Source: Dudresnaya verticillata
Lineage: Eukaryota
DNA: 64,000 nucleotides
NCBI GenBank assembly: GCA_977862235.1
Contig: OZ374557.1
Location: 3,658,001 to 3,722,000, forward strand
Direction: 5' to 3'
This document shows, piece after piece, positions 1-29,240 of the stretch (its first letter is position 1; the number at the start of each line of letters is the position of its first letter). Made by a program: the position numbers and the translations under genes. Under the pieces are notes generated by a model. That model did no database searches. It saw only the letters and a program-made list of their open reading frames with translations, and was not told the DNA's origin.

Positions 1-393
1 AGGGCGCTATCAGCAAGAGCGCTATACCGTTCCGGAATGATTAGGTGGAGGCAGCGACCATCTCAGCGACGCGTCCAGCTCACCCCATCCGAGCCGGAGG
101 ACCAGTCGAGGTCGGCATAAACGAGATACCGGACACTCCTGCTCTGACCCGCCCCGTCGGTCGCACATGGGCGACCACACCCAGCGACAACACCACCAAT
201 CCGGTATGGAATCCAATGAGAGCAGCTCAGAGGATAGCCAACACCGCCGCCGCAAGAGGAGAAACAGAACATCGCGGAAACACGAAAAAGGCATGACTCC
301 TCTACCTCTACGGATTCAGACTCAGAGAGTTCTTCCGTTACGGATAGAGATAACAGGCACCGGGCCAGAAAACACGGTTCCAAATCCGGAAAG

Positions 394-1794
394 GTGAAGG
401 TAATCCGGCCGCTACATGACAAGTTTGTCAAGGCGCTGGACTACCGCACCTACCGATTGGATAAGAGGGGTAAGACGCACGGCTCTAAGTTCTCACAGAA
501 CATGAGCCGTATACGGAAGAAACTCGACGTCCAGATGTTGTCCCATACATTCAATGGGATGGACCCTATTACCGTCTTGGGATTTCTCGCCAAGTTCCGT
601 GACGGTTGTAACATCAACGGCATCGCCGAAGGGGTTGCCGTCCGGTGCTTCCAGTTTTTCCTTAAAGGACAGGCCGAAGCCCTTCTACAGGCTAGGCTTG
701 CTGGAGGTACCATGGTGGTTGACGTGGAGCAGGCTGAGATGCTCCGCACATATTCCGAGGTGGTGAACTTTTTATTGAGAACCTACGCTACGGATGAAGT
801 GATTGCTGAAGCCTATAAGTATGTCAGCAACTTCAGGCAAACATCCGCCATGACGGAAGAGCAGTTCTCGAACCAGCTCTGGGCCAAGGCTCTCCGTTGC
901 GGTACAGTATTTTCCGATCGGGCATTGAAGTCACTGGTCATTGAAGGACTCCTACCGGGCACTCGTCAACAGATGAGAAACTATCTGGCGACGCATTCCC
1001 AGCTGGATTATCAGGCCATCACTCGCTATGCGACTGGCCTGGGTCAGTCCCATCGGGCAGCTCGACGCCAAACCGTTCCGGCTCACGTCTTTGATGGGCG
1101 CCCTAAAGCACGCCCGTCTAAGGTGTTATCGCTGGCTTCCGTCTCGGATGTACACTATGATCCGCAAGCAGATCCTTCCGTTACGGATGCTCAAGTCTTA
1201 GCTATTGAGGGAGGCCACGGTGCCGCTACGGGAACGAGCACGGGGTTACCTTTTCAACCCCGTACTCTTCACCCCCGTAAAGCGTCCACCCTACGCCGCC
1301 CAGGATGCCACGCGCGCAAGGTCCCCCCTATGGTGGATCTCGCCCGGCTCCTGGCCTCCAACAGCAGCCGAGTCACCGTTACGGAAATAATGCCCACGAT
1401 GGGCGAGGACAGCAGCAACCAGCCCCTCCGCTACGGGATGAGTCGGATCCTCGGGTCCGACGCCTTTACGGAAGTTGCAATTGCCGCATCTGCCTTTCCG
1501 CCGAACATGTTGTTTGACCGTGGATAAACGACGCCGATCGGGTTAAGCTCATGTAACAGCGTGAGCGCAACTTCCAGAGGCACTACCCTGTAGGCCGCAG
1601 GTTTGTCGTCGGAACCAGTTCGAATCCGCAAGGGAATCAGGGCAAGCCGCAAACGCCCCCTCCGCAACGGAATGCCCCGATATTATCGGTGGAGGACCAT
1701 GACGGAGTGGAATAAGTGGAATTGTGCGAGCCCATGGAGGCGGATCCGACTGGTGCACCCTTGATTTCGGAAACCTCAAGGGGGGGACACATAA
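394..1794 (+). pseudogene. gag: Gag of element A (frameshifted)
   Basis: ORF 394-1527 aligns with B gag (KALDYRTYRL vs KALDFRTYRL; VVNFLLRTYATDEVI); the Zn-knuckle-like CRICLSAEH lies in a shifted frame. Confidence 0.85.
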
Positions 1795-4203
1795 GGGCGC
1801 CGCCATCCCCGCCCCACGGCGTTCCACCTCTCGTGAGTGTGGACTCGCCCAGGGATCGGCTAGATACCGTTATGGAACTCCCATTGGCTTTTCAGACCAA
1901 TGATCCTATATGTGTTATGCAACAACAACATTATAGGATTCAAATTACCGTGGGACAGAGAGATAGCGTGATGCTTCTTATAATCTCCGTATTGGAATCT
2001 GGCGCGGGGCCAAATCTCATTAGTGCCAGGCGACTTCCCCGTCAATGGCTACCTCTCATTCGCCCCACCACCAGTCCTCCGCTACGGGATGCATCTAGTC
2101 GCGCTATCCGCCCCTTGGTCAAATTCAACTTTTCGTCCGCATCGGAGAGCTCCGTGCTCGCGTCCATTTTCTAGTGGTCGCGAACTTAGCTGCTCCGTGT
2201 ATCTTGGGGACTACCTTCATCGACCGCTATGTGAAGGCAATCCTCCCTCCGTTACGGAAAGTTGTTTTTCATCATTACCCACCGGTATCCCTTGTTGGTC
2301 AAGCCAAAATTCCGAAGACGGGTTCCGCCGCAACCGTACAGCCCTCATCTTTATCTACCGCTACGGTTTCTCAGAAAATTCGTTTAGCCAGATCTACCCT
2401 TATTCTCCCTATGACTCAAACCTCCGTAACTGTTAATTCCCCACGGGTGGGTTATGCTTTCTACAAAATCATCCTAAGCCGGCTTTTAAGCACCTTACGT
2501 TAATGGCTAATGGTATTATGGATGTTGTACCTAACAAACCGTTTCGGATTTGGGGCTCTAATTTTTCTAACAAGCCGATACGGTTGCCCAAATCTACTGT
2601 CGTGGGCCTCGCTACTGCTGCCCCTTTTGCTATTTTTACCGTTGACGGTATACCTCCATTTAAGGAGGGGGGAGGAATTATTCAATCATTTAATTCTAAC
2701 CCTACCTCCGAAAAGGCCAGCAGCATCTCCCCTCACGACAATGAAGTAAGCAAACCCGTAACGGAAAATACAAATACTACCGACTGGAAAGAACAAGTCC
2801 AGATCGGTACAGAAGAAGCATCGCTCCGTAAACGGATTTTAACCCTACTCGAGGAATATAAGTCGATGTGGAGTGGCGATCTTGGCAACATTACAGCTGC
2901 CAAGCACCGCATCGAGTTAACTCCCGGAGCTAAGCCAGTATATCAAGCCCCATACCGTGCCGGACATAAGCAGCGAGATCTCGAAAAGACAGAGATCGAT
3001 CGCATGCTTTCCGCTAAGGTAATTGAACCAGCCTCATCGGAGTGGGCCAGCCCCGTGGTTTTCGTTCCAGAAAAGGACGGCACCATGCGGTTCTGTGTTG
3101 ACTATAGAAGGCTCAATTCCGTAACGGTTAGGGACTCATATCCCTTGCCCAGGATGGATGAGTGCATAGATTCCCTTGGGGAAGCTACTGTATTTACCAC
3201 CCTGGATTGCAATAGCGGATATTGGCAAGTCGAGATTCCGGAAGAGGAAAGGGACAAAACTACCTTCACTAGCCATTTTGGATCATACCGTTTTCGGAGA
3301 ATGCCATTCGGATTGAAAAATGCACCGGCAAGCTTCCAACGGGCAGTTGATATAATCCTTTCTACGGTTAAATAGCAATTTTCCCTCGTCTACCTAGACG
3401 ATGTAATTGTCTACTCAAAAACCGTTACGGAACATTTCCACCACTTGAAGGAAGTCCTTATGCTTTTACGATCGGCTGGGGTAACGTTGAAATTGTCAAA
3501 GTGTGACTTCTTCAACGCGTCTGAATAATACCTGGGGCATGTTATCCGTCCCGGAAAATTAGAAGTGGATAATCGGAATATCCAATCCGTTAAGGTCGCG
3601 AAGCCGCCGACTAACCAAACGGAATTGCGATCCTTCTTGGGAATGTGCAACGTGTATCGTCGCTTTGTACCCAACTTCGCTCGGATTTCAGCACCGCTGA
3701 ATAAGAAAACCGGCAAGGGCTCACCCTTTGAGTTTGGAATATTATCCGATACGGAATACGAAGCCTTCGAGGAACTGAAGAGACGCCTTATCTCTCCATC
3801 TATATTGGCTCTAACCCGTCACGGATATAAAGATACGTTGGACACTGACGCATGTGACCATCAAGTCGGCTGTGTCCTTCTGCAGGAACAACCGAATGGC
3901 GATCACCTCCCTATTGGATACTGGAGCCGAAGCCTCACAGATGCGGAGAAACATTATACTACAACCGAAAAGGAATGCTTAGCTGTGGTCTGGAGCATGT
4001 TGACACTCCGACCCTACCTTTACGGTGACAAGTTTATTCTCCGAACGGATCACGATGCCCTGCGGTGGATCCTGAACCTCGCAGACTCATCTGGCCACCT
4101 AGCCAGGTGGAGGCTCCGCCTATCGGAATTTGAATTTGAAGTGCAATACCGTCCTGGAATTAAGCATCAACTCGCCGATGGTATGTCGCGACTCCGAACG
4201 GAT
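1716..4203 (+). pseudogene. pol: Pol of element A (PR-RT-RNase H) with frameshifts and premature TAG at 3373-3375
   Basis: ORFs 1716-2174, 2174-2503, 2503-3375, 3565-4254; the TAG replaces the W of VKWQF seen in B. Confidence 0.92.
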
Positions 4204-4204
4204 T

Positions 4205-6277
4205 ACAGACGCCGGTGGGTTAATCAACAGCAAGCGGTTCCCGAATCGGCGTGAGGAGATGTGGAGAGCCAAGTGGATTCACTCAAACTGTAGAGTGCGA
4301 ACTCCAACCGGGTGTGATATCGTGTGGTTGAGATGCCAGGAAGAAGAAGACTATCCCGATAAGGTGTGTCGATTGTTGGCCATGGCCCATCGACTGCGAG
4401 ATCATCCGGTTGGTGTCGATTTCCTGTGCTACGAGAAGCCGTATGACCAAGGGGTCCACTGGTTTGGGAATCCGCAACGATGGGCTGACGACGCAGCAAA
4501 AGAGCATCGACTCCGGTTGCGGAGTAGAGATGGAGGCCGCCTCGAAAGGGCGATACTCCACACTTGGAACACCAACGAATTCTTCCAGGTGCCGCCGGGG
4601 GCGCATCGTCGCTTGTACTGCACCGCTCCGGATTGGTGGGCTGAGTATGAAGTCACCCGTTGGTTGTCAGTGCCAACGCCGACGGTGGTGGCGTACTTCT
4701 CCAATCGGTTCATTCAGCATCGTTACTGGCGAGCTGCACACCCAGACGGAGAGAAGTCAGTCGACCATCCGCTAATGACGGTGTTGGGTCGGATACTCCA
4801 AGCGGAATGGGCCATGTTAGTCCTCTTCTCCTGGTTACAGGTCACCTACAGGGGTGTAAGAGCTAATACCAAGATGACCGACTGGAGGGCGTACCCACGG
4901 AGCAGAACGGATCCGGAAGGTGGCGAGTGCGGGCGCATATTGAAGCTACCAGGGCCGTTGGTTACCCTTATACACCAAGTTGGAGTAGACCGGTTGGTTG
5001 AGGGGACCGAATACCCCTTGGCGCGTGTGGAACGCCTTTTCGCGGTTCACGCAGACAACAATTGGGAGCGAACGCCAGGGTTCATCGGTTATCATTGTAA
5101 TGACGACCGCGTGTTGTCGGTGCCGCCTCTAAACTCCGGGTGTGGTATGGCGTATTTCCTATCGGAAGAAGACCCCGAGCCGGCGTGGTTGATCGACGAG
5201 AAGATGTCAAACTGGCACGCGATGCGCTCCCGCTCGAGATTCTACCCCATGACGGAGGGGCCATCAAGGGCTCCGCTGTCACGCGAGTGGGGTACTCCAT
5301 CCGGTATGCCGCATCAACAGGGACGCCTCGACAGTCCGCCTGCTGACGAGATTACACCGATGGGGGTTGAAAAGATTGAGAAGGTGCACGGGGACCCAAG
5401 GGTCCTCGTGCCAAGAGAATCCCCTGGTGGAGACGCCATAAAGGTGTGAGGCGACCGCACGACTGCGTCGCCCAAGAAGACCGTAACGGAGTCTCCTCCT
5501 GTAGGAGCGGAGATCGAGACGCAGGGGGGTTTGTCGGGGGTGGCTGCAGCATCCACACCAATCGGGGCTTCGAAACACGTTGTCCCGCCGGAGATCAACA
5601 AGAACATCAACTTGGACAAGGCGGCTAATACCGTAGCGGTAGTTTGTCAGAAGCCTACGGTAGTAGCTGCAGCCGTGGCTAAGTTGGGCCCCGTCGGGGA
5701 ACACGAAGACTCCGAAATGGAATAGGACGCTACACCGGTGGGGACCGACCAAGTGGAGGCACTCGCGACCACACGGCCTGGAGTAGCCGTGAAGACCCCT
5801 GCACCGAAGCGGGGTGAAGTTGCCAAACCGGTGTCGCCCGCGTCGAGTGACTCCGTGACGTTTGTGGCCGCTGCGGGTCCAGGTGGAGGGCCACCCCGTC
5901 ATATCGACCCCGTGGTGGTGAAACAAGAAGAGGATGCCCCGAAGGAGATGCCGAGTTGGACCGAAGCGGAGTTGCGCGTAGATGGGGCTGCCCTGCAGCG
6001 ACTCCGCGAAGGGTGTAGAGATGCGGGCATGCCACTTCCAGTGTCGGCGAACGAAGCCATTAACACCGCCGTGCTGTGGGTCGGGCGTCTGGTGCGCCTA
6101 CGGCGTACCATTCGCGCTTTGCGTCGACGCATGGCAGACACCGGCAGGAGACTCACCATGATTACCGCAAGGGTGTACGATGAAGATATTCCAGACTTGG
6201 AGGAGAGTGCGGCAAAAGAGGAGGAGACGGAGGCTGACCTGGCGCCACCAGCGAAGCGTCCACGAAATGCAGTGTAA
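4205..6277 (+). pseudogene. Antisense extra ORF of element B (~690 codons, two in-frame stops), unknown nuclear protein
   Basis: ORFs 4130-5449, 5531-5725 and 5738-6277 share one frame, separated by TGA (5447) and TAG (5723); Trp-rich N-part, low-complexity linker, helical C-part ending PPAKRPRNAV. Confidence 0.7.
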
Positions 6278-6466
6278 GCGTAGAAATGCCACTTGTCAAT
6301 AAAATCTTGTGATTTGTGTGAGCCCCCTTCCGCTGGCGGAGGGGAAGTGAGATAACACCACTGTGGAGAGATTCTTGAAGTGGAGGGGCTACCCTGCCCC
6401 ACAGAAGGCTTTGCGTCCGGTTGACGACCACCTATTACCAGAAATGGTTGCGCGCTTGCCGTCGAT

Positions 6467-6624
6467 TCACCAATATGGAGTAGAGCCCCTTGGGCAAGGG
6501 TTCTGGGATTCCAGAGTCCAGAGGTCATGCCCGTTTTGTACCAGCGCCAAGTCACCAATACGGAGTAGACCCCCTTGGGCAAGGGTTCTGTGAACACGGA
6601 GTCCACGGGTCATGCCCGATTTTG
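6467..6624. repeat. Imperfect ~85-bp direct repeat (2 copies) with hairpin, in the 3' region of B
   Basis: tcaccaata(t/c)ggagtaga(g/c)ccccttgggcaagggttctg...gtcatgcccg at 6467 and 6552. Confidence 0.8.
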
Positions 6625-6658
6625 CCAAACCCCTACTGCGTGGGTGAGTAGCGACTGG

Positions 6659-9600
6659 CTATCGACGCGTGGGAGCTCTGCGACGTCGAACTGCAGCGGC
6701 TGCCGTGCGCTTTCTATTCCAATAGCGGTGTATGAAGTTTTGTCGCAACTCCTCAGCGGGTTCATACGTGTCCTGGTCTGGTGGGTAGCCATACCAACGC
6801 ACCTTGTAGGTCATACCCGTGGGTTCTTCGCGGTGTCCCACGATCTGCTCGATGACATACTCCGTGTCGGCATCAATTGTTTCCGGCACGGGGGCAGAAA
6901 TACCGCCTGGCGTTTGGGGCGTTACAGTAATACCACCTGGTGTTTGGGGTACTACTGTGATGTCTCCCGCCTGCTGGGATACTGTACCGTCCATGTCGGT
7001 GTGTGGCGTAACCGGCGGAGCCCATAGCGGCACCGGTTGCACGGGAACTCCAATTGGTACCTTAGTGATGCGATCGATGCTGATGGGAATCAGGACGCCA
7101 TCCTTCTTGATAGTGACTACAGTATCCGTTGCGGTGTGCACGTCGTAGGGGCCCGTCGATCTTGGGAGGAGCTTCTTCATTTGCTCCGCAAATTCACCGA
7201 CGTGGTCAGGGCCTGGACCCAATCGGTCGCGTTCCTTCCGTTCGGTGGGCCGTAGATTACGCGGCGGGCGATCTACGTAGACCTCATCGCCACCGCGAAC
7301 CACCGGTCGGAAGCGCACCTTACGGTCGAATAGGGCCTTGGAATTCAACTGGGCTGTAGTCTGTTTGGTCTGCGCCTTCTGTAGGGCGTAACGCAAACGC
7401 CGCATGGTTCCCCGCTTTTGGAGTACGGGCGTCATACGCCCCTCCGTAACGGTTTCTTCCAACTCCACAGGGGTGCCACGCACAATAATATCCGATGGGT
7501 GTCGAATTAACACCAAGTCAAAAGGAGTAGTATCCGTGATCCGGTGTACCTGAATATTGTAGGAGTAGGTTAACGGCTGTAGATATAAATCCCAATCGGT
7601 GTGGTGATCCTCGACGTAGTGTCGGAGGCGCTGCGCTATGGTTGTGTTAAACCGCTCGGCCTGCCCGTTGGTTTGCGGGTGATAGGCAGCGGTCAGCAAA
7701 TGTCGCACTCCGAGTAGGGCACAGACAGCGTCAAAGAACTTCGCCGTGAACTGTCTTCCATTGTCGGTGAGTACAAATTTAGGTGCGCCTACGCATACAC
7801 CCAATGGTCTAAAAATGCGTTCGCCACCACGACGGCTGTAATCGTCCGTAACGGAATGCACCGTGTTAGCTTAGAAAACCGATCTGTGATGACCAGTACA
7901 AAGACGTATCCCCGTTTGGTTTTCGGCAGCGGGCCCAATATGTCCGTAGCGACAAACTCGGGCCACTCGCGGGAAATAGCTTCAAGAACTTCTGATGCTT
8001 AAACCGCGTGCCCTTGGTTTTGACACATGAGCGGCAACTCCGAACGGTCTCGAATACATCGTTAGCCATATGTGGCCAATAGTAGTCTCTCCGTAAGGTG
8101 TAGTACATCTTAATTCCACCAGGGTGTCCCGACATCAAGGTGTAGTGGGCAAGATGCAGGACCCTGCCGCGCATCTGTTGCGGTATCACCTTTTGGAGTG
8201 CGCCGTCGAGGCCAGACTTGCGCACAAGAAACCCATGTCGGTCGTAGTCAAATTGTGATCCAGGGGATCCCACCGATTCGGCTTTAAGCTTGCAGAAAGT
8301 ATCTGTTGCTTGCGCGGCTATGAACTCCTCACGGGTAAGGGTCTCATTGCGCATATCCTCTTGTTGGATGACTGTTTGCTGGAGTGGAGTGGGTGGTACT
8401 GTATCCTTTTCAGGCGTAGTATCCGTTTCGGTGTCTCCACTTTCAACGCCTAGGACAAGGCTGCTTGCGGCATCAGGCTGCTGGGTCTGTTTCCAATTGG
8501 TTAATCGCACACCATGTTGCACTACACCATTAGGAGTCGATTCCATAACGAAGCAAGGCACTTCCTCCTCCAACTCAGCTTTGCCAACACCACCTGTTCG
8601 GAGTCTCGACATACCGTCTGCGAGTTGGTGCTTGATACCAGGGCGGTATTGTACTTCGAGCTCAAATTCCGATAGGCGTAGCATCTTGCTAAGCGTCCAG
8701 ACGCATCGGCTAGACTCAATATCCAGCGTAATGCGTCGTGATCCGTACGGAGTATAAACTTTTCACCGTAAAGATAGGGGCGTAGCGTTAGCATACTCCA
8801 AACGACAGCAAGGCACTCCTTTTCAGTGGTTGTATAGTTCTTCTCCGCATCGGTTAGACTTCGGCTCCAGTAACCCACTGGTAGATTATCTCCACTAGGT
8901 TGCTCCTGGAGAAGGACACACTCAACTTGGTAATCACAAGCGTCGGTATCCAACGTATAATTGAAACCGTGACGGGGTAAAGCCAATATTGGAGGGGAGA
9001 TTAAGTGTCTCTTTAGCTCCTCAAAGGCGTTAAACTCCGTTTCGGTGAGAGTTCCAAACTCGAATACCAGACCCTTGCCGGTTTTCTTATTGAGTGGCGA
9101 AGCAATACGTGCGAAATTGGGAACGAAGCGTCGATAGACGTTACATAATCCTAGAAAAGAGCGCAACTCCGTTTGGTTTGTAGGTGGCTTAGCCTCCTTA
9201 ACGGCGAGAATATTCTTCCGTTCCACTTCCAGTTGGCCCGGGCGCACTATGTGGCCCAGATACTGTACGGAAGTGTCGAAGAAGGCATACTTTGATAATT
9301 TCAGCGTTACGCCTGCGGAACGGAGTAGCGTGAGGACCTCCTTAAGGTGTTCGAAATGCTCCGTGACGGTGTTAGAATATACAATCACATCATCCAGGTA
9401 GACTAAGGAAAATTGCCATTTCACCGTAGATAGGATGATGTCAACCGCCCGTTGGAAAGTAGCCGGTGCGTTCTTGAGCCCAAAAGGCATTCTCCGGAAG
9501 CGGTATAATCCATAATGACTGGTGAAGGTAGTTTTGTCACGCTCCTCCTCGGGGATCTCTACTTGCCAGTAGCCACTATTACAATCCAGAGTGGTGAATA

Positions 9601-13618: not shown

Positions 13619-13757
13619 GTGTTCTTCTATTCTTAGGTTACCAAAACGGAGTCAACGAGTGTTTGCCTTGTCCTGCCTTTACACCAATACGGAGTTGTCA
13701 CGAAGCTGATCTCCTACCGAAGCGGAGCCCAACGGAGATTCTTCTACCTTCACGGCC

Positions 13758-13775
13758 TTCTAGGTCGGGAGACCA
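13758..13775 (-). promoter_or_regulatory. Primer binding site of B (tRNA 3' end, probably tRNA-Tyr)
   Basis: Minus strand TGGTCTCCCGACCTAGAA, 6 nt from the LTR; identical to the PBS of C. Confidence 0.85.
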
Positions 13776-14888: not shown

Positions 14889-15101
14889 ATTACATCCGTG
14901 TCGACCTACGTCCCAGAAGCGTTTCTCTCTCTATTTTTACCTTTCGCTTTGCTGCTTTGTTTCTAACTTTACCGCCGAGGGCGTTTAAAGTCCGCCCTTG
15001 GCGCGTTTCATACGCTCTACCACACCATCGCTATCAGGGTGCTACCCACCGGGATTGAACTACCCGAAGGTGCTACTAGTCTCTAGATGGTTTGCACCAC
15101 A
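14889..15101 (+). repeat. Probable 3' fragment of a further LTR (family E)
   Basis: Pyrimidine-rich tract like the other LTRs; ends in gcaccaca where the Harbinger-like frame appears to break. Confidence 0.45.
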
Positions 15102-15632: not shown

Positions 15633-15660
15633 GGTGCCTGGGGGTAGGATAGGGTGATGG

Positions 15661-16303
15661 TGTAGTAGTATGGCACGTCAAGGCAGAAACCCGCCAACCG
15701 GCAAGGACAGCTGTCCTGACGGTGCACAACACAATAGCTTAGGTAGCTCGGGAAAAGGGGTTGGTAGAGTCTTTGAAAGGCACAGAGCCTAAGGGAAAAG
15801 GGGAAAAGGGGCGGCGCCACCCAGCTCGCACAGAGCAACCGTCGTGTGAAGGCAAGGCTCGTAAAGCACCTGAAAGGGAGCTTACGTTGAGTCCGTGAAT
15901 TCCAGAAAAAGGGTAAAGACCCGAAACCCACCGGGGGTCTATTCAGGAGGCCCCTGCTACTCAGGGGCCTATTAAGTATACAGAGCCGAAAATGCTCTTA
16001 CCTCCTATGAGCTATTCTAAGCTATTCTAACTGTCATTATTAATCTAATTGTACTGTTGTCAGTTATAAATACGGATTAGTGGTAGTACCGCGTCGGGAC
16101 GCGTGAGCGGCCACAATAAATTACCCAATGGCAATTTGCTATCAATTTTGGTGCCAGCAGGGACGCAAGCGGGGCGCATCGCCCTTACAGCGCACGGTGC
16201 TTGTGCGCGCCTTACAACTTGATGCGCGTGGGCGTCTTACACCTTAATGCGCACAAATGACTTACAGTGCGCTAGCACTCCTGCTGCGGCTCATTCTTCC
16301 ACA
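15661..16303 (-). repeat. 3' LTR of element C
   Basis: Direct repeat of 29241-29883; about 5 substitutions seen by eye. Confidence 0.97.
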
Positions 16304-16314
16304 CGGCCCCCTCG
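16304..16314 (-). promoter_or_regulatory. Polypurine tract of C
   Basis: Minus strand CGAGGGGGCCG immediately before the 3' LTR. Confidence 0.6.
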
Positions 16315-16366
16315 TTAAGGCTGAGAGACCCGCGAAGCCAGCAAGGCTGTTTCTATTGGCCCCGTC

Positions 16367-19099
16367 TTGGGCGAGCTTGAAATCCCAGTGGATTATTGGG
16401 CCAACGGTTCACTTGTAACCGCCGCCACTGGCGGCCGGTGTGGAACCGTTCGCAGTAGTGACAAATCACTGGCTTCGCCGTCCCGGTCTCGGCGGCGACC
16501 GTCTGACTATTCCGACGACCAGTGTGCATTTTCGCGCAGAAAGCCCGAACCGGCTGCATACTTCAGCGACTTCACAGCGGCTTCCGCTACAGTTCTCTGT
16601 GCACATCCCACTTCGCACCACCATCTCCAACGCCTCCACGCTGTGGTCCGGCAACCCATCTAGGTTCGCGTACTGCTTCCGTTGCGGCGGTCTGCGGACA
16701 TTACAGTAGCGGGACCCGCTGTACCCTGTCGCCACCCGTGCACCTCTTCCTACGGCCGGGCCGTCACGTGCGCAGTAGCCAAGAATAGCCACTGTGGCTG
16801 GATAGAAGACCTGTTCACCCCGTGGTACCAAGATGAGCCATAGCCACATGGCTTATGGGGCCGCTGGCTCAAGCACCGGTGTGCTGGGCATTGAAGTGGA
16901 TGAGGAAAGAGTGCCTTTCACGGTCAAGGAGAGCCGCGACTGGCGGGTGCGCACCGACCTCGCGCACCTCAAAGCGCGGGCGGGCGCTGATCGCACCGAC
17001 ATTCTTCGACATGGAGCGCGGCAGGCGCAGCGCCGCACTTGTAATTCCCATGCTCGAGCGCGTCTGGCGCTGCTAACCGGCATGACCCGTCGCCTGCCCG
17101 CCCTTACGGGTCCGTGGCAGTGGGACTTAGCGCACCCGCGCTTCCGCCACGAGGTGCGCTACACAGCCACCTTGTGTAATAAGCTCAACTATGAGCTGGA
17201 GCAGATCCAACACGTGCACGATATGGGTGAGTTCGACCTCGGGATGGTGGCGCATGAGCGCCTGCTGATCCGCAGCGGCAGGGACAACTACCCTTACACC
17301 ACGGCTCGGGTCGTCCGTTGGGACGAGACGTCCAATTTCAAGTTTTCCATGGACAACCCACAAACGGCTATGCCTTCCGATATCATATGCTTTGAGCGTC
17401 GGAATCGTCACCGCACCGGTTGTCTCGTCCCAGGACACTGTCAAGAGGTTACCTCTATTCGCCCGGATTTCTATAGGATCAAATACCCTCAAGTGGCGGG
17501 CGATCACGCCGAGATGGAGGTATCCTATTCCATGCCCGTCGGTACACCAACCATCATAGCGTACCTAGGCTTGGAGATGATGGAACCAACGCAGACGATA
17601 GAGTCTTATGGTCCATCTTTCGTCATGAGTGGATCGTGCTAGTGACGCAAGTAGTCGTCTACGAAGCCCTTCGGGGCTTGTTATACTTCATCAGCGCCCA
17701 GCTTCGTGGGGCCATCCGTTCTATAGGCTCTGCTGCCTTCACCGCCAACTCGGCCGACGCCTCAGACTTGGACCAACCCTTGGTCTTTGTTGAGCGTATT
17801 CGCTGGAGCGGCGTTTCGAAACGCAATAGGCATCTGCCTGAGAACACCGGGCACCTGACGCCGGTGTCGACCGCGGCGATTGGGTTGACTTCGACGCCGT
17901 CAAGTGGCATCCAGCTGGATGAGGGCGAGCGCCGCACTGGTTACAACAAGGGTTGGATGAGTGTGCGTTGGCGCGATGAAGGGCCTAAGCACCCTGCTGA
18001 GGTGCCCCCTTCGACGATACTGTCGATGGGGAGCCGCAGGGTCCATACGCTCCAGTGCTGACACACCACAACCGGGCTGATGCCGAGATCCGTGATCTAT
18101 TTGGCCGCCGTGGGTTGGCGATCCGCCTTGCTGCCCATTGAGGCATCTACTCCCTCAACCTTAACAATCTAGTCTAGCTGAATGGGTCGAGGATGCGCTA
18201 GCCGAGTATGAGGCTCATTGGATAGGAACTCCAGGTCCGGTTGACCGCCTTTTGACTCACCTGAATAAGTTGCCCCCGCTGGGCGGAATCAAGGCTGAAG
18301 GTGAGCCTGGAGTGGAAATCAAGAAAGAGCCTGGCTCTAAGGTTGCCGCGGCATCGGCTATGGTAAGCCAGGTTCTTCAGCCCAAGGCTCTTTAGCGCTC
18401 CTTCCGATTATCGACGCGAGGGAAGCCACCGCGGCTGATGTGTCAAAGGTCCCGCGTGAGAAACCCCTTGCCACGGCTGGTGCTAACGCGTCCAACATCG
18501 CTCCGCGAGTCACGGCGCCTCCTTCCCAGCCATCGGCTTCTCTAGTTGGAGTCCCACTCCGCTCCGTGGTTCCACGCCAGATTTCTACCGTTAGCGGCGC
18601 GCCCGCTGGGAATAACCCACAGTCGGCGTCAGCATCGGCTAACCGCCCCACTGCCGAGGTGGCTGTTGGGCCCCCCTCAGGGCCGCCCCCTTCGGCTGCA
18701 TCTGGCACAGCACCTGCCTCACTCGAGACGCCTGCTAAGTCTTTGACTGGTGATTCTCCCCAAGTGGAGGAGAGGGCATCTACGCCGCTGGCTCCCGGTC
18801 AAGGCGATGAGGCTTTGCAGCCTACCGACGAAGTGCTCGTGAAAACTGAGTTGGTGCTCAAGGAAGAGGAGGAGTTGGCTCCTGTGGAGGGCGATGTTGC
18901 GCCGATGGATGTGGACCCGACGACAGCCAACGAGGCTCAAGGAACGACAATGGAGGGTACTCGCCGGGGCCGTGGACCGCGTCGTGGCCAGGGTCGGCGG
19001 ATCACACGCGAGGTGCGCCGCATCGTGACGATGCGGGCGCCTTCTGCACCTAACCCGCCCCTTGGCGATGACGAGGTCATTGACCTCCTTTCGGATTAA
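16367..19099 (+). pseudogene. Antisense extra ORF of element C (fragmented), unknown nuclear protein
   Basis: Consecutive plus-strand ORFs 16367-16663, 16833-17642, 17636-18061, 18440-19099; ends RRGRGPRRGQGRR...DDEVIDLLSD. Confidence 0.65.
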
Positions 19100-20155
19100 C
19101 CGAGTCGAGCCCTCGTCTTGAGGCATGCCTCGAGACATCGAGCCTGATAGGGGCTAGAAGCCCTTTCCGGCGGCTTAACCGTTTAGCAATAAACTTCGTC
19201 TTGTATGCGTAGCCCACTGCTTTGGTAGGCTTCGAGCCTTCACATCCGGTGCCACTCTTCTTCCTAGTGAGACAGTGGTGCCTTTGCTTGTTCAAGCAGC
19301 GTGGGACGACCTATTATTGGTTGACCAATACGCCTCTCTAGCGTCTGTCGCTGCCTGAGAGCGTGCCAGCAATGCCCACAGTAGCTCTACAGTTCAATGC
19401 GACGCACTGTAGCGTATTTTGGCGCGAAAGCCGTTATGGCTGTTAATTGGTCACATCACTCCGCCACCTTGCTGTAGCCTTTCTAGCAACTCACGGACTG
19501 TGCCCATCGCCACAACCAAGAGGTATTAGTCAGCGGCATCGGCTTCTTCGACCGCGTGGCTTCCAGAATTCTCAACGTCAATACGCTTGGCGCTTTCTCC
19601 TCCCCTATCAATGGGGTCTTACGCGGTTCCAAACGTCCTCCCCAGCAGATGGGGGAGTCGGAGTATCAAGACTCACCAGTCTAGGATGGGGCGTATTTGT
19701 GCCTTACACCATCACTGGGTTTGACGCGAACGCCGTTTTTGTGGGAGATAGTTGGATCAACCTCGGGCTAATGTCCAGTCCATATTGTAGCGTATCGCTT
19801 TTGGGCAGTCCAGCCGCCCTCAAGCGTCATAGTGCTGGTAGTTATAATTGCAATAAATTATCAGTTGGCCATCGCCGCTGTTCCTTGCCCGCGCCGAGGA
19901 GAGAGTGGTCGCCATAGCTTTTGCCTTTTCAGGATTGAGTCCTTGGGGTAGCCATGTTCCGGCCACTCTGCCTAACAATAGCCTCTGTGCTCGAGGTTGG
20001 CCTCAACCTGAATCTGGCCTTGAGCCAGGTTGATAACCTTATGCATAGCGTTAGTCGCTGTACACAGGTGCGCCTCTAACGTAGGATCAACTCCTAGCTC
20101 TGAAGCGCCCGCTCGCTTTGGCGAGACTCATCTTGCAGAGTTCACCTCTTGATTA

Positions 20156-20287
20156 CATCTATCCATTTCCATGCTTCCATCCAGGATCCAATCCTTCTAA
20201 CATCTATCCATGATATACATCTATCCAGAGTCTTGACTCTTCTTTCATCTATCCATTTCCACATCTATCCAGAGTCTTGACTCTTCT
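20156..20287. repeat. CATCTATCCA micro-array (5 copies) in the 3' region of C
   Basis: Copies at 20156, 20201, 20218, 20246, 20262; two extend as gagtcttgactcttct. Confidence 0.8.
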
Positions 20288-20564
20288 GCAGCCATCGACA
20301 TTGGTTCATCTTCTTGAGAGGCTAAACCCCTACTTCCGGGTTCGGTAATCGGCGAATGCCGTCCTTAGCTCATAGGCTGCGTTCGTATTTGCGCGAGGAC
20401 GTCGGCTTCGGAATCCAGAACCAAGTTCTACCTCAACTCATATGAGGTGAGTCTAGCAGTCGGGAGATCCGACTCCAAACAGCCTAACTGCTGTTTTGGT
20501 TTGGTGCGCCCGCTTGAGACCACTCATAGGCCCGGTGCCTTACTCAACGCGCGTGTTCGCCTCG

Positions 20565-23500
20565 CTAATTATCAGGGAAAGGTATCCCTTTTTGGCGGAG
20601 ATACCTTGCAACTAAATTATGAGGGAGATGCCCTTTTGGTTCCCATGTGTCCTTTGAGGCTGGGCTCTGGAACCAACGCACACGATAGAGGTGTGTGTCG
20701 GGGTTATAGGAAACGATCCTTTCGTACACGTGTTCGCGTGGTGGTGCCTTCTCGAAGCGCGAGAATTTGCGGTTTGACGTCCCTTCAGCCACTGTCGGCG
20801 GAGGTGATGACGCGTCCACACCCTCATCTCTAGGAGCATTCTCCTGTCGTTGGGGAACAACAGGCGCAGTATGGGCGCCGCTAGGTTGCGCATCCCCATC
20901 TGTGTCAGCCATTGTCTCGCCTTCAGCACCAGGTGCTTCGGGAGGTGCCGGTTCATTACCGCTTGATGCGGTGTTCATCTGGGGCCCAGTGCCGTTTGTG
21001 TTGGGCCCGTAGGTTGGCCCAGTTGGGCTACTCGAAGGTGCTGCACCTGTCTCCGGTGGCATTTCCACTACCGGGGGAGTCATGTCTAGTGCCAGCGGCG
21101 CTTCGTGTGGCGATGGAGCCAAAATGACTCGGTCCAAAGAGATTGTTTCTCTGTCGCCCTTGATGCCGAGAACCACCACATGGGTTCCTCTCTCGAGGAC
21201 CTTATATGGCCCAAGGGCTTTCGGGAACAGTTTCCCTGCCCTCGCCACGCCTGAAGCGTCCTTCACTTTGGGTTCCCGTTCGAGGAATACCCACGACCCA
21301 GGACGTACCCTTTGGTTAGCCGGTCGAATGCGGCTATTAAAGTTGGTTTCATAGCGCCTTTGCGCTAGTTGCATCCTCGGCAGAGCCGTATCCATGAGCT
21401 TTTCCAGCCGAGCGGTTAGGCGCTTCTTGACGTTCGTAACGGGTATCCCGTCAAGGTCTACCGTTTCCGCTTGTTCCAGTAGTAGGGAAGTCGGCGGATT
21501 TGACAAAACCAAGTCAAAAGGGGCTAACCCTGTAGCGCGATGCACTGTCGTATTGTAAGCGTACGTGAGCGCTGAGGTGAACTCGTCCCAGTCCCTCTGG
21601 TCTTCCGCTATGAAGTGGCGAAGGCCCGCTAGGATGGTGCGGTTGAACCTCTCGGTTTGCCCATTAGTTTGGGGATGGTATGTCGACGTGAACATATTCC
21701 GAATCCGTAGGATATCGCACACGGCGAGGAAGAACTTAGAGGCAAATTGAGACCCATTGCCTGAAAGGACGTAACGGGGCGGTCCATAGATAAAGACCCA
21801 ATGGTCACAAAACGCCTTCGCCACTGTATAGGCGGTTACCGTTTTCATCGGTATTGCTCGCGTCAGCTTCGAGAAGCGGTCCGTCATAACCAACAGGAAC
21901 TCGTTTCCTTTCCCGGAGCGGGGTAATGGGCCCAGGATATCGATTCCTACGAACTCTAACGGCATGGTTGCCGGGAAGAGTTTCATATGCGAATCTTGTT
22001 TCCGCAACTTCACCCGCTCTTGTGCGCATTTGACACAATTACGCACGGTGGAGTATACATCCAATGCCATCTCTGGCCAATATACCTGTCTTCGCAGGTT
22101 ATGATACATCCGGGTTCCACCTGGGTGTCCCGCCATCTCGGGGTAGTGGGCTAGGTGTAACGCCCTTTCTTTAAGAGAACGAGGTATGAGAACCTGTATC
22201 GCCTTGTCGATATACGACTTCCGGACTAGGAGTCCTCGTTCGTCCTCGATATAGCAACCAGGCTTCCCGGCCTCGAGGTTCCTTCGGACCCAGATACAGA
22301 ATTCACCTGTTTTCTGCTCACGGAGCAACTCTTCTGTGGTGATGAGGGATAGTCCCTTTTGTCCAGATTCCTTCTCGGCCACTTGGGCGATGAACATTTC
22401 GTCATCCGAATCGGACTCATCGACGGGTTCGATTTCCCACGCTTCCAACGGTCGCGTGTTGGGCTCCGGTCGCGACCTTTCGCAGGGTTCGTCCCTCGGA
22501 TCAGTCTCGAGGATTAGACACGGGATATCCAGGTCCGGTTCCCATGGCGTGAAGCCATACGTGGGCAGCCGAGATACGGCATCAGCAATCTTATTCTTTT
22601 TGCCTTTTCGGTACTGGACCGTGAAGTCGTATTCCAGGAGGCGTAATCTCCAACGGGCCAACCGTCCAGAAGCATCTGTCATGCTCATCATCCATTTCAG
22701 CGCTTGATGGTCTGTATACAGGTCAAAGTGGGACCTTTCTAAATATGGTCTGAGCAATTGTGCCGCCCAGACCACTGCGAGGCACTCCTTTTCGCCTACA
22801 GAATAATTCTTCTCTGCCTTAGTCAGTCCTCGGCTCCAGAAGCCTATCGGGTGTCGAGTCCCGTCTTCTTCGGCTTGCATCAGCGCGCAACCAATATGGT
22901 AGTCGCACGCGTCGGTATCTACCGATAGGGCCTTACCCTCTTGTGGCAACCTAAGAATAGGAGGCGCTATTAGCGCTGTCTTCAGCAAGCCGAACACCTC
23001 GCGCTGACGTTCATTGAACTGTGGCAGTTCAAAGCCCACTTCCTTCTGAAGGAGGGCATTGAGCGGAGCTGCCACGCGAGCGAAGTTAGGCACGAATCGA
23101 CTGTAGACGTTGCATAGACCGATGAAAGACCGCAACTGGATCTGGGTGGTCGGCTCCTTGAAGCCTTCGATGGCTTGCGTATTCTTAGTCGCCACTTCTA
23201 ATAAACCCGGACGGATGACGTGCCCTAAGTAGTCGACACTCTTTGTGAAGAAGTTACACTTCTTAAGTTTCAAGGAGACCCCTGCTTCTTGTAATACAGA
23301 GAGAATCTCTCTTACATGCGTGACATGCTCGTCGACGGTCGCGGAGAATACGATAATATCGTCGAGGTATACGAGGCATGATTTCCATCGAAATCCTGAT
23401 AAGAGGATGTCGACCGTTCGCTGAAAGGTCGCCGGAGCGTTGCATAGCCCAAAGGGCATCCTGCAGAATTGGAAGCAGCCCGCGTGGCATGTAAAAGCAG

Positions 23501-25095
23501 TCTTATGCCTATCCTCCGGTGAAACCGGAATCTGCCAGTAGCCCGAGTTGCAATCCAAGGTCGTGAAATATTGGGCTTCGCCCAAAGAGTCCAGACACTC
23601 GTCCATGCGTGGCAGAGGATATGTATCCTTCATTGTTATCGCGTTAAGCTTGCGATAGTCAACGCAAAAGCGGAGTGACCCGTCGGGCTTCTTAACCAAG
23701 ACGACGGGGCTCTCAAACACAGAGCGTGCAGGCTCTATAACGCCTTCTTTGAGCATTTTGTCGACCTCATCCTGTTCTGCTTGACGGGCTCTAGGGCCCG
23801 ACCGGTACGGTTGCGTAAACACAGGTTTCGAACCTTCTTGAAGCTCAATACGGTGTTCGGTCACCTTAATGGTTCCGAGTTGTCCGTCCCACATACCGGC
23901 GAACGGTTTAAGCATTTTGCGCACGCGACGCCGATCCGAAGTGGACAGGTGTTCCAGCGCGAGGTCATCGACCGTAATAGTGGTTGTCGCTGATGTCGCG
24001 ATTTTGATTCCAGGCTTAGAGTCTATATCCGTCTTCAGAGCAGCAGCAAGCCACGCCCCCCTACATCGGAAAATGTTTCGGACGAGGGAAGCGTGTCACT
24101 GTCAGGAACATTATCCTCGATGGAGACAGTGTAGACCGGCGTCTGCGTGGGCGCCAGTACAGCCTTTCCAAGGCTTTGATTCTTGGAAAGCCGTTGAGGA
24201 CGCGAAGAAAAGTTCGCGACCTTGACGTGAAAGAGCCGGTTCTCTTGAATGTTGACGATTCCATTCGTCAAAACACGACTTGTCGGCGCTCGTATAAGCG
24301 GGGTAGGGATTCCAGTAAATGTGTCCCTTTGGCGGAGCAGGTAACAGGAACCCATGACTCACTGCCGGGCAGTAAAGTAGTAGTTTGTGCGACGCGAAGG
24401 AGTCGCGAGGTAGGTAACGGGGGAACGTCCATTGGTTCGTCAGACCTGCCTTCACGAGGTATACCGCATCAGCGGCGTAGAATTGGGTGAATGGACCCGT
24501 CGCGAAGAACCATGTTCTGTTGGCGGACGCGTAACCCTTCCACGTGGGTATCGATAAATGTGCAACCCAATATGGCATCTACTGCCAATGCCCTTACGAC
24601 AACAAAAGGTTGCCGAACCGTGTAGGACCCGAGCCTGATTATCAGGGAGACCGTTCCCAATGTAGTTAGTCCGTGACTTGACGCGGAGGTCAAGTTCACA
24701 ATTGACCGTGTTGTAGAAATCCGTTTCTTGTCTTTCGGTGATAGAACATCCGCGCGGATGAGATTAGGGCCTGCCCCTGTATCCAGTACGGAGAGCACAC
24801 GAGTAAGATCGTCAACAGAAGTCCCGATGGACGCAGCTACTTTATAATTGTAGCGCGACAAGGAGCAAACGGGATCCTTACAATACTCGTGATACTTCCG
24901 TCCGGAGGGTAAGCCCACGGGACGCGCTAAGATCTTCTTGGGAAGAGAAGTGACAGATTCACTAACAACCGGTCGATTCGTTGATGAGAAGCTTTCGAAG
25001 CTGTAGCTCGAGGAGCTGGATTCAACGCACCGATCGGGGGGTTCCGGTGTCACCTGTGATATGTGGTGTACCGAAACCGGTTCCCCCCTCGCTAG
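20565..25095 (-). CDS. pol: Pol of element C: PR (frameshifted pieces) plus uninterrupted 1119-aa RT-RNase H-integrase-chromodomain
   Basis: LDTGAGPNLI (24469-25053); YLDD, DTDACD, HPGG..CVKC, QTNGQTER, YRVRW..DTWEP; the integrase second Asp reads LSGNG, possibly inactive. Confidence 0.93.
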
Positions 25096-25101
25096 TTTTT
25101 T
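25095..25101 (-). promoter_or_regulatory. -1 ribosomal frameshift slippery site A AAA AAC at the gag stop of C
   Basis: GCA AAA AAC TAG; the -1 frame runs LARGEPVSVHHISQ into the protease ORF; a GGGGGG..CCGGT/ACCGG..CCCCCC stem follows. Confidence 0.8.
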
Positions 25102-26665
25102 GCCTTCATTGCGGGCGACCGCGGTAGCGGTGGAGGTGGTGGAAAGGGACGAGACCCTTGGCGTGGTGACCTGGGCGTTTGCCTCGGAGCGTCGATGGGG
25201 TGGTTCAGTCGAGGTTGAAATTGAACCTGTCGATTTCCCCCTTGACTTGCACCCAAATTTTGACGGAGATCCATTCGTTGCCCTATGGGCGGCCCGGCGG
25301 GCCCTCGCTCGTTAGCGAACTCCGGCAGTCGGCCAACGGTCGCCAGCCACGCTTTTTGCTCGTGTGATAGTTGATGAAACTGTCTTCTTTTTAAAGTCTC
25401 AAAAGACTGCTCATCGGTTCGAGCCAAATGCGGACAGTTGGACTTTTTATGGCCAATGCCGTAGTATTCGAAGCAGATATCATTGGGTTGGTCTTCAACC
25501 GTCACCCACCCAGGGCGTTGAGTCCTGTTTGGCTGTGCCCAGTCTGGGAGCCTATTATTGTAGTTCTGCAGTACCGCGTCAACTTCACCGTGATACGGGT
25601 GGTCGTAGTAATACTGTGTCGACCACGAATCCGATTGGGTCGCTGTTGATGGTGGCGCTTCGTTAGCGATGGCAGCTACGACTGCGTCTTCGCTTTCCGC
25701 ATCAGAGCCGCTGCTCTTTGAAGTATCCGAATCGGAGGCGGATGCATCCTTCGCCTGGCGAATTGGGAGCGCCCGCCCTGACTTGTGGGTACGAACCTTC
25801 TTTAAGGTCTTCCTTGGTAGCGTCCTATTCGCTTTTGGCGTTCGTCCGCCACCCACTAGCGCCCGATGGGAATCTCCCTGTGCAGTCGCAAGCTCGACGT
25901 AATCCGCCAGTCTGGCAGTCCTTGGGTCCAAGGACAAGGTACTGAAAAACGGCTTCACCGCTGGTAACAACCCCCGAATAAACCTGGGTATCAAGTCTTG
26001 TTCGGTGTACACCCCAGCGACTCGACACGCTTTGTTCTGCAACCTTCTCGAAAAGGTTACTTCGTCCTCATCTGGCTCCTGCGCCATGGTGTCCATCTCA
26101 GAGGCAATCCTCTCAATATAGACGTCCTTGGCATATGTCCGAAGAAGGTAATTCACGGCTTCGGGCCATTCGGTGAAACCACCATTGTCGTCACCCGCAG
26201 CGTCAAAATTCGCTTCAAACATATCCTTCGCATCCTTCTCGAGGAACTCGGGGATGACGACGATAGTGGCACCTTTGCTGATATGGGCTTGATCGAGCTG
26301 CCTCTTAAGCGTGGCTAAGAAGCCAATACTTGACACCGGGTCACTCCTGTCAAAACGGCGACTCCGCATAACGGACTTGACACGTTTGATATTCTTCGTG
26401 GTCGCCTCGGTCACCTCGGGCCCGCGGTAATCATCCAGGTTCAATAACCTATACCTTCTATAGGACAAAACCTGTATGAAGGCAGGATTCCGAGGAGTCA
26501 GCTCCTTAACACCGGAACGTCGGGGACCCCTCCAGGAAGACCATGACGGTCTAGAATGCGAACGGGAACCCGGTCCTTCTTCATCCGAGGGACCCGGATT
26601 AGGGTGAGACCCTGACCGAGGATTCTCCTCGTGACGATGGCTTGAATATCTGTCACGATGAGAAT

Positions 26666-27606
26666 TGTGGCATAGACGTCAGGTCGAACTGACGTCTAGC
26701 TGCGCTGGTCGATCAGTCGCACCCAGACCCGTTGAAGGGTGGTAGCTGTGGTGGTAGAGAGGTGGTGTCGGCCGCGCGCGCCGTCGACGGTCGCGGATCA
26801 ACGGCGTCGAAGCCTGAGCGCGCACGGGGCGTACCGTACGCGGGCGGCAGCGGCCGGATCCCTGCGTCCCCGTCGTGGGGCGGCACGAAGCCGACGGTAG
26901 GGAAAGGAAGAGGAAAGCCTAGACGGCTAGGGAAAGAGGGAAGCCGTAGGGCGAAGGACTTGGGAAAGAAACCCAAAGAAGAAAGGGCAAGCCTGGCGTA
27001 GGCTGGCTTGCCTGGTTTACTGAAGCCCAGAGGGGCGACTACTAGATATATTACAGGGCCTGCGGCGGCACCAAACCGGGAGGTGCGCCGGCGCGCTCCA
27101 ACACGCGTCGACGCGTACGGGTAACGGTAACCCGGGGGCGCGCGTAGGCGAAACGGTCCACACGTACTCAACGGCTCGACGCCAGAGTACGCACGCGCGT
27201 GTCACGCACTCAACGGCTCTGCGCCGGAGTGCGTGCGCACAGCGCGCAGGACAGCAGGGCGTTCGACCGCCGCTTACACTAGACAGTGCTGTACACTACA
27301 AAACAATAAACGTAGAAATTACATGGGAGTTTCAGTGTCACACGCGAACGCGTGCACACGTGGGCGCCACTGCGCCCTCCCTTACAGTTCAGCGGGGCTT
27401 CGGCGCCACCGGCTGACAGCGTGCGCACAGCAGCGCACACGTGGCGCAGCTGGTCTTACAGCTGCGCGCGCCACTGCGCACTTCCTTACAGTTCAGCGGG
27501 GCTTCGGCGCCACCGGCTGACAGCGTGCGCACAGCATTGCACACGTGGCGCAGCTGGTCTTACAGCTGCGCGTGCGTGGCACAGCTGGTCTTACAGCTAT
27601 GCCACA
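26666..27606 (-). mobile_element. Solo LTR (family D, 941 bp) inserted in gag of C, TSD AGAAT
   Basis: 10-bp inverted termini tgtggcatag/ctatgccaca; AGAAT at 26661-26665 and 27607-27611; internal ~104-bp tandem duplication. Confidence 0.95.
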
Positions 27607-29221: not shown

Positions 29222-29239
29222 TTCTAGGTCGGGAGACCA
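29222..29239 (-). promoter_or_regulatory. Primer binding site of C (tRNA-Tyr-like)
   Basis: TGGTCTCCCGACCTAGAA, 1 nt from the 5' LTR. Confidence 0.88.
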
Positions 29240-29240
29240 C

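What the first reader, a model, noticed from the sequence alone, without database searches (positions are those of the whole stretch)
4205..6277. Long antisense ORF downstream of integrase in chromodomain Gypsy B
Seen: about 690 codons in one frame on the strand opposite gag-pol, broken only by two stops compatible with single C>T changes. It has a Trp/His/Cys-rich globular-looking N-part, a disordered linker with SUMO consensus VKQE, a basic helical segment and an NLS-like PAKRPR end. I recognise no domain, and it has no env-like TM or signal. Established: 3' antisense ORFs are known in plant Tat/Retand elements (e.g. Grande, RIRE2) but are atypical of chromodomain elements. Inference: an uncharacterised nuclear accessory protein transcribed from the 3' LTR side.
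Basis: partly seen in the sequence, partly recalled or inferred. Interest (0 to 1): 0.78.

Follow-up and report, generated by a model that had tools for sequence, protein, structure and literature searches.

The report
Antisense gene family in red-algal retrotransposons
This is a broken copy of an extra gene that many red-seaweed retrotransposons carry on the strand opposite their core genes; it is conserved as protein-coding, its main domain has a confidently predicted fold with no match among known structures, and it likely makes a nuclear protein that would help the element stay active.

Summary
In detail: 690 codons (4205-6274) with two internal stops, antisense and 382 nt downstream of the chromodomain integrase of a red-algal Ty3/gypsy element. 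It is a real gene family, not chance. The N-part has 112 relatives (23 at E<1e-10), including multi-copy Gracilariopsis chorda hypothetical proteins. A profile finds the same ~270-aa domain antisense behind the integrase in 32 of 49 related loci, and in the neighbouring full-length element C of this window. In relatives it is under purifying selection (dN/dS 0.23-0.76 against 0.67-2.0 in control frames), and its tree follows the RT tree. AlphaFold2 with an alignment gives pLDDT 89 and pTM 0.90, with no Pfam or structural match (best Z 3.5). A C-terminal NLS-like motif is enriched (12 of 26 against 0.4 in shuffles); the SUMO motif is not. This copy is dead: its start, PPT and 3' LTR are lost at a junction with element A. 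Best reading: a nuclear accessory regulator, likely DNA/chromatin-binding; the function is untested. The layout is known from plant Retand/Grande and fungal Boty; the protein family appears undescribed.

The parts
4202..6277 (+). Remnant of the antisense accessory ORF (aORF) of element B; 5' end missing; internal stops at 5447 and 5723
4250..5128 (+). Conserved ~270-290 aa globular domain (W/R/E/Y/P-rich, mostly helical); no Pfam or fold match
5129..5971 (+). Low-complexity, probably disordered linker holding both stops; VKQE at 5918-5929 is not enriched in the family
   Evidence: disorder inferred from composition
5972..6133 (+). Second conserved motif, likely helix-(G)xxxP-helix followed by a basic or coiled-coil-like helix; likely dimerisation or binding module
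   Evidence: found in 10 of 47 tails including itself; alignment A3; no useful PDB or Pfam match; helices inferred, not modelled
6248..6265 (+). C-terminal NLS-like PAKRPR
   Evidence: family enrichment
6298..6303 (+). AATAAA 21 nt after the stop, followed by a GT-rich tract; candidate poly(A) signal of the antisense transcript
   Evidence: element C also has one (19188); among 17 other loci a similar hexamer in only 2
6467..6624 (.). Two-copy 85-bp tandem repeat in the spacer between the aORF and the integrase end
6659..7870 (-). Element B integrase C-part with chromodomain (about 6713-6859)
   Evidence: Chondrus crispus relatives at about 50% identity
7866..13651 (-). Element B gag-pol, in several frameshifted pieces
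13759..13775 (-). PBS-like 17-mer starting TGG, identical in element C; B's presumed 5' LTR lies about 13783-14283 (no second copy)
   Evidence: LTR limits inferred from the TG..CA ends
238..4199 (+). Element A, inverted relative of B (71-74% nt), truncated after RNase H at the junction that also removes the aORF start
15661..29883 (-). Element C, full length: 643-bp LTRs 99.2% identical, 5-bp target-site duplication, PPT and PBS
16806..19099 (+). Element C's own antisense ORF, broken into pieces, with the same domain (E 2.3e-18; continuation E 8e-4)

Best explanation
This is a 5'-truncated, stop-broken copy of a conserved antisense accessory gene of red-algal chromodomain Ty3/gypsy retrotransposons, whose intact relatives likely encode a nuclear protein that would bind the element's DNA or chromatin and help keep it transcribed. 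Shown: position and strand between integrase and 3' LTR, purifying selection in relatives, inheritance along with pol, a folded N-terminal domain in the model, and an enriched NLS-like C-terminus. Inferred: a separate antisense mRNA starting near the 3' LTR and ending before the integrase stop; nuclear import; dimerisation through the C-terminal helices; and a trans-acting activator or anti-silencing role, by analogy of layout to VANC, TnpA and Retand/Grande ORFs. Because it would have its own promoter, it could be made while the 5' LTR is silenced. This particular copy is unlikely to be expressed as protein. The confidence given is for the regulatory mechanism; that it is a selected, element-encoded protein gene family is about 0.93.
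For: 112 relatives at E<=1e-3 among 1.84 billion representatives, all over query residues about 7-366. Multi-copy G. chorda hypothetical proteins: a cluster of 4 sequences on 5 accessions. Domain antisense within 4.5 kb behind the integrase in 32 of 49 loci with at least 2.5 kb downstream. It lies inside LTR pairs in window C, L054, L060, L062. A profile search of one bin, not selected through integrase, gave 3 hits: 2 antisense to pol and 1 on a 2.5-kb contig without pol; L135 has intact gag, pol and an 853-aa aORF. dN/dS 0.23-0.76 in all 50 pairs with dS>0.25, lower than all three control frames in each pair. In two pairs the tail is also constrained: 0.34 and 0.19, against RT 0.17 and 0.29. 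aORF and RT trees share their main groups (Mantel rho 0.48, 0 of 2000 permutations; 16 elements). Model pLDDT 89.1, pTM 0.90. NLS-like end in 12 of 26 tails, shuffle maximum 3. Coiled-coil Pfam hints in several tails. Grande GENE23 is nuclear and has its own antisense promoter (PMC7264820); VANC21 is predicted to dimerise through a coiled coil (PMC13547354).
Against: No direct evidence of expression, localisation or binding. The domain is about neutral in charge (K+R 32-41 against D+E 32-37 in 7 members), which does not look like a strongly basic DNA binder; the model's surface could not be inspected. 17 of 49 loci lack the domain by the same test; some are explained (L051 frameshifted, L049 nested, 3 probably outside the clade), but L002/L004/L005, L025, L032, L067, L072, L074 and L076 show none, so it may be dispensable for some families. 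14 of 26 tails have no NLS-like end. The loci are redundant, were chosen through the integrase, and are not independent. Selection was measured in relatives, not in B's own family. Some close pairs have dN near dS, as expected for dead copies.
Confidence: 0.45

Rival explanations
1. The protein acts after transcription, like retroviral Rev or Vpr: it binds the element's RNA, Gag or integrase and helps nuclear export, packaging or import of the pre-integration complex.
For: An NLS-like end and conserved Arg/Trp/Tyr residues fit RNA binding equally well. Proposed for plant antisense ORFs in PMC7264820. Inherited with pol.
Against: It evolves several times faster than RT (branch lengths), more like a host-facing factor than a core-particle partner (inference). 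A separate antisense gene is not needed for a particle component.
Confidence: 0.25
2. The domain is an enzyme of an undescribed fold (for example acting on DNA, RNA or chromatin marks), carried to the nucleus by its tail.
For: A compact 270-aa domain with nearly invariant charged and aromatic residues (R in 104 of 108, Y in 112 of 119, several D/E) and neutral net charge. An orchid Gypsy with a captured m6A demethylase is listed (title only).
Against: No column is invariant. The loop with the conserved D-x-R is absent from the GC-rich group and L085. No metal-ligand Cys/His pattern.
Confidence: 0.15
3. It is a protein-protein suppressor of host defence (for example of RNAi or chromatin silencing complexes) that does not bind nucleic acid, possibly using SUMO/SIM contacts.
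For: Neutral domain and long disordered tails. SIM-like and KxE motifs lie together in a subgroup (P0065, P0068, P0074, P0076, window B and C); the SIM-like pattern in 4 of 26 against 1.2 (15 of 500 shuffles; pattern chosen after seeing the data).
Against: The SUMO consensus is not enriched family-wide.
Confidence: 0.1
4. The ORF is a captured host gene, a separate nested element, or a chance open frame.
For: The window copy is broken and sits at a rearrangement junction. The genomic context of the 112 protein hits is unknown. Only 30 were looked up, and only one cluster names an organism.
Against: Same strand and position in dozens of diverged elements, inside LTR pairs, with tree congruence and purifying selection. 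No LTR or other boundary between the ORF and B's integrase.
Confidence: 0.05

Closest known systems
Plant Retand/Tat antisense 3' ORFs (TRP28/PF04195; Grande GENE23, RIRE2, Retand ORF4)
   Same: Antisense ORF between pol and 3' LTR, present in most of a lineage; tandem repeats in the spacer; coiled-coil (SMC-like) parts; nuclear localisation shown for GENE23 (PMC11963269, PMC7264820).
   Different: Retand are non-chromovirus elements of flowering plants with TRP28. Here the element has an integrase chromodomain, the host is a red alga, and no TRP28 match was seen.
Boty brtn (Botrytis, Sclerotinia)
   Same: An antisense extra gene in a non-plant Ty3/gypsy element (PMC7264820; PMC8365987 passages). 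That Boty carries a chromodomain is recalled, not checked.
   Different: Fungal host. No sequence was on hand to compare; no fungal name appeared among the 30 homologues looked up, most of which are unnamed.
Ogre plant mobile domain (PF10536) ORFs, MAIN/MAIL1 and VANC anti-silencing proteins
   Same: TE-borne nuclear accessory proteins with a globular domain plus coiled coil; a working model for function (PMC6317226, PMC13547354 passages).
   Different: No PF10536 match among the listed families and no such structure among the fold hits. Remote kinship is not excluded.
HTLV-1 HBZ and other retroviral antisense proteins
   Same: Encoded antisense from the 3' LTR side; nuclear regulators (PMC11963269, PMC7264820).
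   Different: HBZ is a small bZIP protein (recalled). This is a 550-1000 aa protein with an unrelated domain, in an element without env.
Chondrus crispus / Gracilariales chromodomain Ty3/gypsy elements
   Same: Integrase-chromodomain 44-57% identical to C. crispus proteins; aORF domain 36% identical to G. chorda PXF39757.1.
   Different: Those records are annotated only as unnamed or hypothetical proteins; no link to the retrotransposon is stated in the names seen.

Membership tests
Ty3/gypsy LTR retrotransposon (element B) | Order gag, protease, RT, RNase H, integrase | tested here: met
   Pfam on B's integrase and gag frames and on C's pol; B-C and B-A similarity through RT and RNase H; protease motif read from the sequence
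Ty3/gypsy LTR retrotransposon (element B) | Two LTRs, PBS, PPT, target-site duplication | tested here: inconclusive
   B has a PBS-like site and one presumed LTR; its 3' end is lost. All features are met in relative C.
Chromovirus | Chromodomain at the integrase C-terminus | tested here: met
   PF00385 E 4.7e-12, above cut-off; the aromatic-cage Y, W and Y are visible (cage positions recalled)
Chromovirus | RT falls within a named chromovirus clade | not testable with these tools
   No named reference RTs. B, A, C and 44 loci form their own clade (SH-aLRT 100, quick tree).
Chromovirus | tRNA-Met primer in most members (PMC6317226) | not tested
   The PBS 17-mer shared by B and C was not matched to a tRNA; it recalls a tRNA-Tyr end (from memory).
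3' antisense additional ORF (aORF-3R) class | Long ORF antisense between pol and 3' LTR, present in most copies and conserved | tested here: met
3' antisense additional ORF (aORF-3R) class | Own antisense transcript; nuclear protein | not testable with these tools
   No sequencing run was listed; only an NLS-like motif
Retand TRP28 ORFs | Transposase_28 domain PF04195 | tested here: not met
   Not among Pfam matches of 33 long members or the 25 families shown of 58 for 133 members; 0 matches at E<=10 in bin G001, which holds three aORFs. Remote homology was not tested.
PMD / MAIN / VANC | PF10536 domain or the same fold | tested here: inconclusive
   No Pfam match; not listed in fold searches; no library of predicted cellular structures was available
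env-like ORF | Sense orientation with signal peptide and TM segment | tested here: not met
   Antisense; best hydropathy window 1.51 in this ORF; 15 of 26 long relatives have a window above 1.6 somewhere

The most novel reading that the evidence does not exclude
Red-algal chromodomain retrotransposons evolved, independently of plant TRP28/PMD and fungal brtn, an ancient antisense gene for a nuclear anti-silencing or activator protein with a new fold, kept across most of the lineage. It would be the first counter-silencing protein family of red-algal transposons and could help explain why LTR elements fill these genomes.
Probability: 0.3. Interest if true: 0.82.

Novelty: new variant of a known kind. 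Interest (0 to 1): 0.64.

Why it matters
What the antisense 3' ORFs of LTR retrotransposons do is an open question (PMC7264820, PMC11963269). This adds a separate case in red algae: one domain shared by most sampled elements of a clade, under selection, with a high-confidence model that matches nothing in Pfam, the PDB or BFVD. Intact natural copies exist (for example G. chorda PXF39757.1 and locus L135), so it can be tested directly. It also shows that some multi-copy 'hypothetical proteins' in red-algal annotations are probably transposon genes, and it gives a new marker for annotating these elements.

Tried and rejected
No genome is held for the window and no sequencing run was listed, so copy number, dN/dS in B's own family and expression were not testable. 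Word-based homologue searches found nothing for the ORF (one search covered only proteins of 2035-5000 aa, so it is weak evidence against a pol fusion). Pattern scans with the ORF or P0062 found no locus. Single-sequence AlphaFold was uninformative (pLDDT 32.7). Fold searches with the good model: Foldseek PDB best E 2.4, BFVD best E 0.089, VIA-align best Z 3.5 at rmsd 4.7 over 106 residues among 48,161 chains; absence does not prove a new fold, and subdomains were not folded alone. PDB sequence-profile searches gave best E 0.094 and 0.4. ESM Atlas gave no usable hit (its own model of P0062 is poor). PHROGs showed only coiled-coil noise. Rfam had no match in 4100-7000. A weak Top1B_N_bact match in 10 closely related members (best E 0.0033) was rejected as confined to one subfamily. 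A SAP/HeH identity for the C-terminal motif was considered from memory, but Pfam and PDB gave no support. A SUMO-site role was not supported family-wide. A universal AATAAA was not supported. Fusion to element A's pol was rejected: different frame, and A's frame stops at 4252. The complex predictor was not available, so dimerisation is untested. Three look-ups of earlier findings were empty. Eight literature searches listed no paper on this ORF in red algae; Repbase and subscription journals were not searchable and may record it.

Full report
Setting. The first 30 kb hold three Ty3/gypsy elements. A (+, 238-4199) is cut after RNase H. B (-, gag-pol 13651 to 6659) ends in an integrase chromodomain (PF00385 E 4.7e-12). 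C (-, 15661-29883) is complete, with 643-bp LTRs 99.2% identical and a 5-bp target-site duplication. A and B are inverted relatives, 71-74% identical up to 4199. B's integrase has Chondrus crispus relatives at 44-57% and an Agarophyton one at 36%, so the host is inferred to be a red alga. No genome or reads were available.

Observation. The frame, the two stops (5447, 5723), the end (6277) and the motifs are as described. Matched random sequence gives on average at least 12.4 stops in its best frame; the lowest of 2000 trials was 2. The ORF has no real start. It runs into the A-B junction, its first ATG lies inside the conserved domain, and 25 long relatives carry 5-303 extra N-terminal residues. 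B's PPT and 3' LTR are absent. This copy is a pseudogene; whether the junction is a deletion or an assembly join cannot be told.

It is a protein family. Word-based searches failed, but phmmer against 1.84 billion representatives gave 112 hits at E<=1e-3 and 23 at E<=1e-10. Long members are about 480-1160 aa: a variable N-terminal extension, a ~270-aa domain, a low-complexity linker, a short motif that looks like two helices around a Gly/Pro turn, often a coiled coil, and a basic end. Of 30 members looked up, one cluster names an organism: Gracilariopsis chorda hypothetical proteins, 4 sequences on 5 accessions; four more clusters carry JGI entries, three of them labelled hypothetical, and the rest are unnamed.

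It belongs to the retrotransposon. 131 loci were fetched through B's integrase; 93 eukaryote-like ones were screened, and 49 had at least 2.5 kb downstream. 32 of the 49 have the domain on the opposite strand within 4.5 kb. Of the 17 without, L051 has a frameshifted copy, L049 has it behind a nested integrase, L043's copy is antisense to a neighbouring element, L073 is borderline (E 0.012), and L089 and L094 fall outside the clade. Nine (L002, L004, L005, L025, L032, L067, L072, L074, L076) show nothing, and L017 and L090 also show nothing. One + strand hit near the end of L064 has no element assigned. The loci are redundant and mostly from a GC-rich host group that I did not identify. Window element C has its own broken copy (E 2.3e-18). 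The ORF sits inside LTR pairs in C, L054, L060 and L062, about 0.8-1.4 kb from the 3' LTR. In a bin searched directly with the aORF alignment, 2 of 3 hits are antisense to pol and the third is on a short contig; 2 other bins had none. All aORF-bearing RTs fall in one clade of 47 of 65 rows (SH-aLRT 100; quick tree, the careful search did not finish). For 16 elements the aORF and RT trees share their main groups, with longer aORF branches (rho 0.48, 0 of 2000 permutations; FastTree; B and C are placed differently in the two trees).

Selection. In two groups of loci (12 and 7 sequences; 87 pairs), the 50 pairs with dS>0.25 give dN/dS 0.23-0.76 in the aORF frame, against 0.67-2.02 in three control frames. 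The 37 closer pairs are mixed, some near 1. In two pairs, RT, domain and tail give 0.17/0.23/0.34 and 0.29/0.29/0.19; two other pairs were saturated. These are Nei-Gojobori counts on non-independent pairs of relatives, not on B's family.

Structure. With 133 sequences AlphaFold2 gives a compact, mostly helical domain with a small C-terminal beta hairpin (pLDDT 89.1, pTM 0.90). Conserved residues are W, R, E, D, Y, P and G; Cys is not conserved. Pfam, PDB sequence profiles, Foldseek (PDB, BFVD), VIA-align and the ESM Atlas give no credible match. That makes a new fold possible but does not prove it, since predicted cellular structures could not be searched. The domain is charge-neutral.

Motifs. 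An NLS-like motif in the last 25 residues occurs in 12 of 26 tails against a shuffle mean of 0.4 (maximum 3). The SUMO consensus occurs in 6 of 26 against 4.1, not enriched. A SIM-like pattern chosen after the fact occurs in 4 of 26 against 1.2. AATAAA follows the stop in B and C, but a similar hexamer appears in only 2 of 17 other loci.

Mechanism. Shown: a selected, vertically inherited antisense gene with a predicted folded domain and an NLS-like end. Inferred: its own antisense transcript, nuclear import, and action in trans on the element. I put DNA/chromatin-level activation or anti-silencing first (0.45) because the layout matches known TE accessory regulators and the gene diverges fast, as host-facing factors do. 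RNA or particle handling (0.25), an enzyme (0.15) and a protein-only suppressor (0.1) remain open. The neutral charge and the families lacking the gene count against certainty.

Known context. Antisense 3' ORFs are described in Grande, RIRE2, Retand, PvRetro13 and fungal Boty, with function unknown and GENE23 nuclear (PMC7264820: parts 1-2 of 3, the main text). TRP28 is in 97% of Retand clusters (PMC11963269: abstract, background, part of methods, passages). Extra ORFs of plant elements are mostly heterogeneous, with PMD, TRP28 and Athila ORF1 as exceptions (PMC6317226: passages; green plants only, no mention of Rhodophyta). VANC resembles MAIN structurally (PMC13547354: passages). brtn is mentioned in PMC8365987 (passages). 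PMC2774666 (passages) had nothing relevant. Supplements were not read. Eight searches listed no report of this ORF in red algae; Repbase was not available.

Verdict. A real, lineage-wide accessory gene family of a known genomic layout, with an apparently undescribed domain; the window copy is a dead example. New variant of a known kind; interest 0.64.

Noticed in passing
window 50300-64000: Tandem array with a 3622-bp unit, about 4 copies at 99% identity, each with a 196-aa open frame ending in a hydrophobic then basic stretch.
   Followed up: no
window 13759-13775 and 29224-29240: Elements B and C, with diverged RTs, share an identical 17-nt PBS that recalls a tRNA-Tyr 3' end (from memory); GC-rich relatives use a different PBS.
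   Followed up: partly
window 14454-14891: A 439-bp fragment 94% identical to the gag-upstream region of element C (26663-27101), inverted, just outside B's presumed 5' LTR.
   Followed up: no
window 12473-13651 (-) and 27493-28736 (-): B and C have long, low-complexity open frames upstream of the recognisable gag, with no Pfam match; B's has three 40-nt repeats. Possibly a long Gag N-terminus or a 5' extra ORF.
   Followed up: no
L002, L004, L005 (after 6064, 6825, 6847): A family inside the clade with a long 3' region and many 200-330 aa frames but no match to the domain; it may carry a different accessory gene.
   Followed up: partly
L081, L084-L086, L103, L135 (G001); L082, L083: Contigs filed in bacterial MAGs are eukaryotic Gypsy elements of this clade, i.e. 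host contamination of the bins.
   Followed up: partly
window 15060-15677 (-): A 205-aa frame between B and C that looks like the start of a Harbinger/PIF-type transposase, by eye only; C inserted beside it.
   Followed up: no
window 31000-49400: Gene-dense host block, by eye: calmodulin-like, beta-lactamase-fold, sulfotransferase-like, MAPEG, FKBP, TAF9-like and signal peptide peptidase genes.
   Followed up: no
P0089, P0121, P0117, P0151: A subgroup of homologues has a long insertion in the middle of the domain.
   Followed up: no
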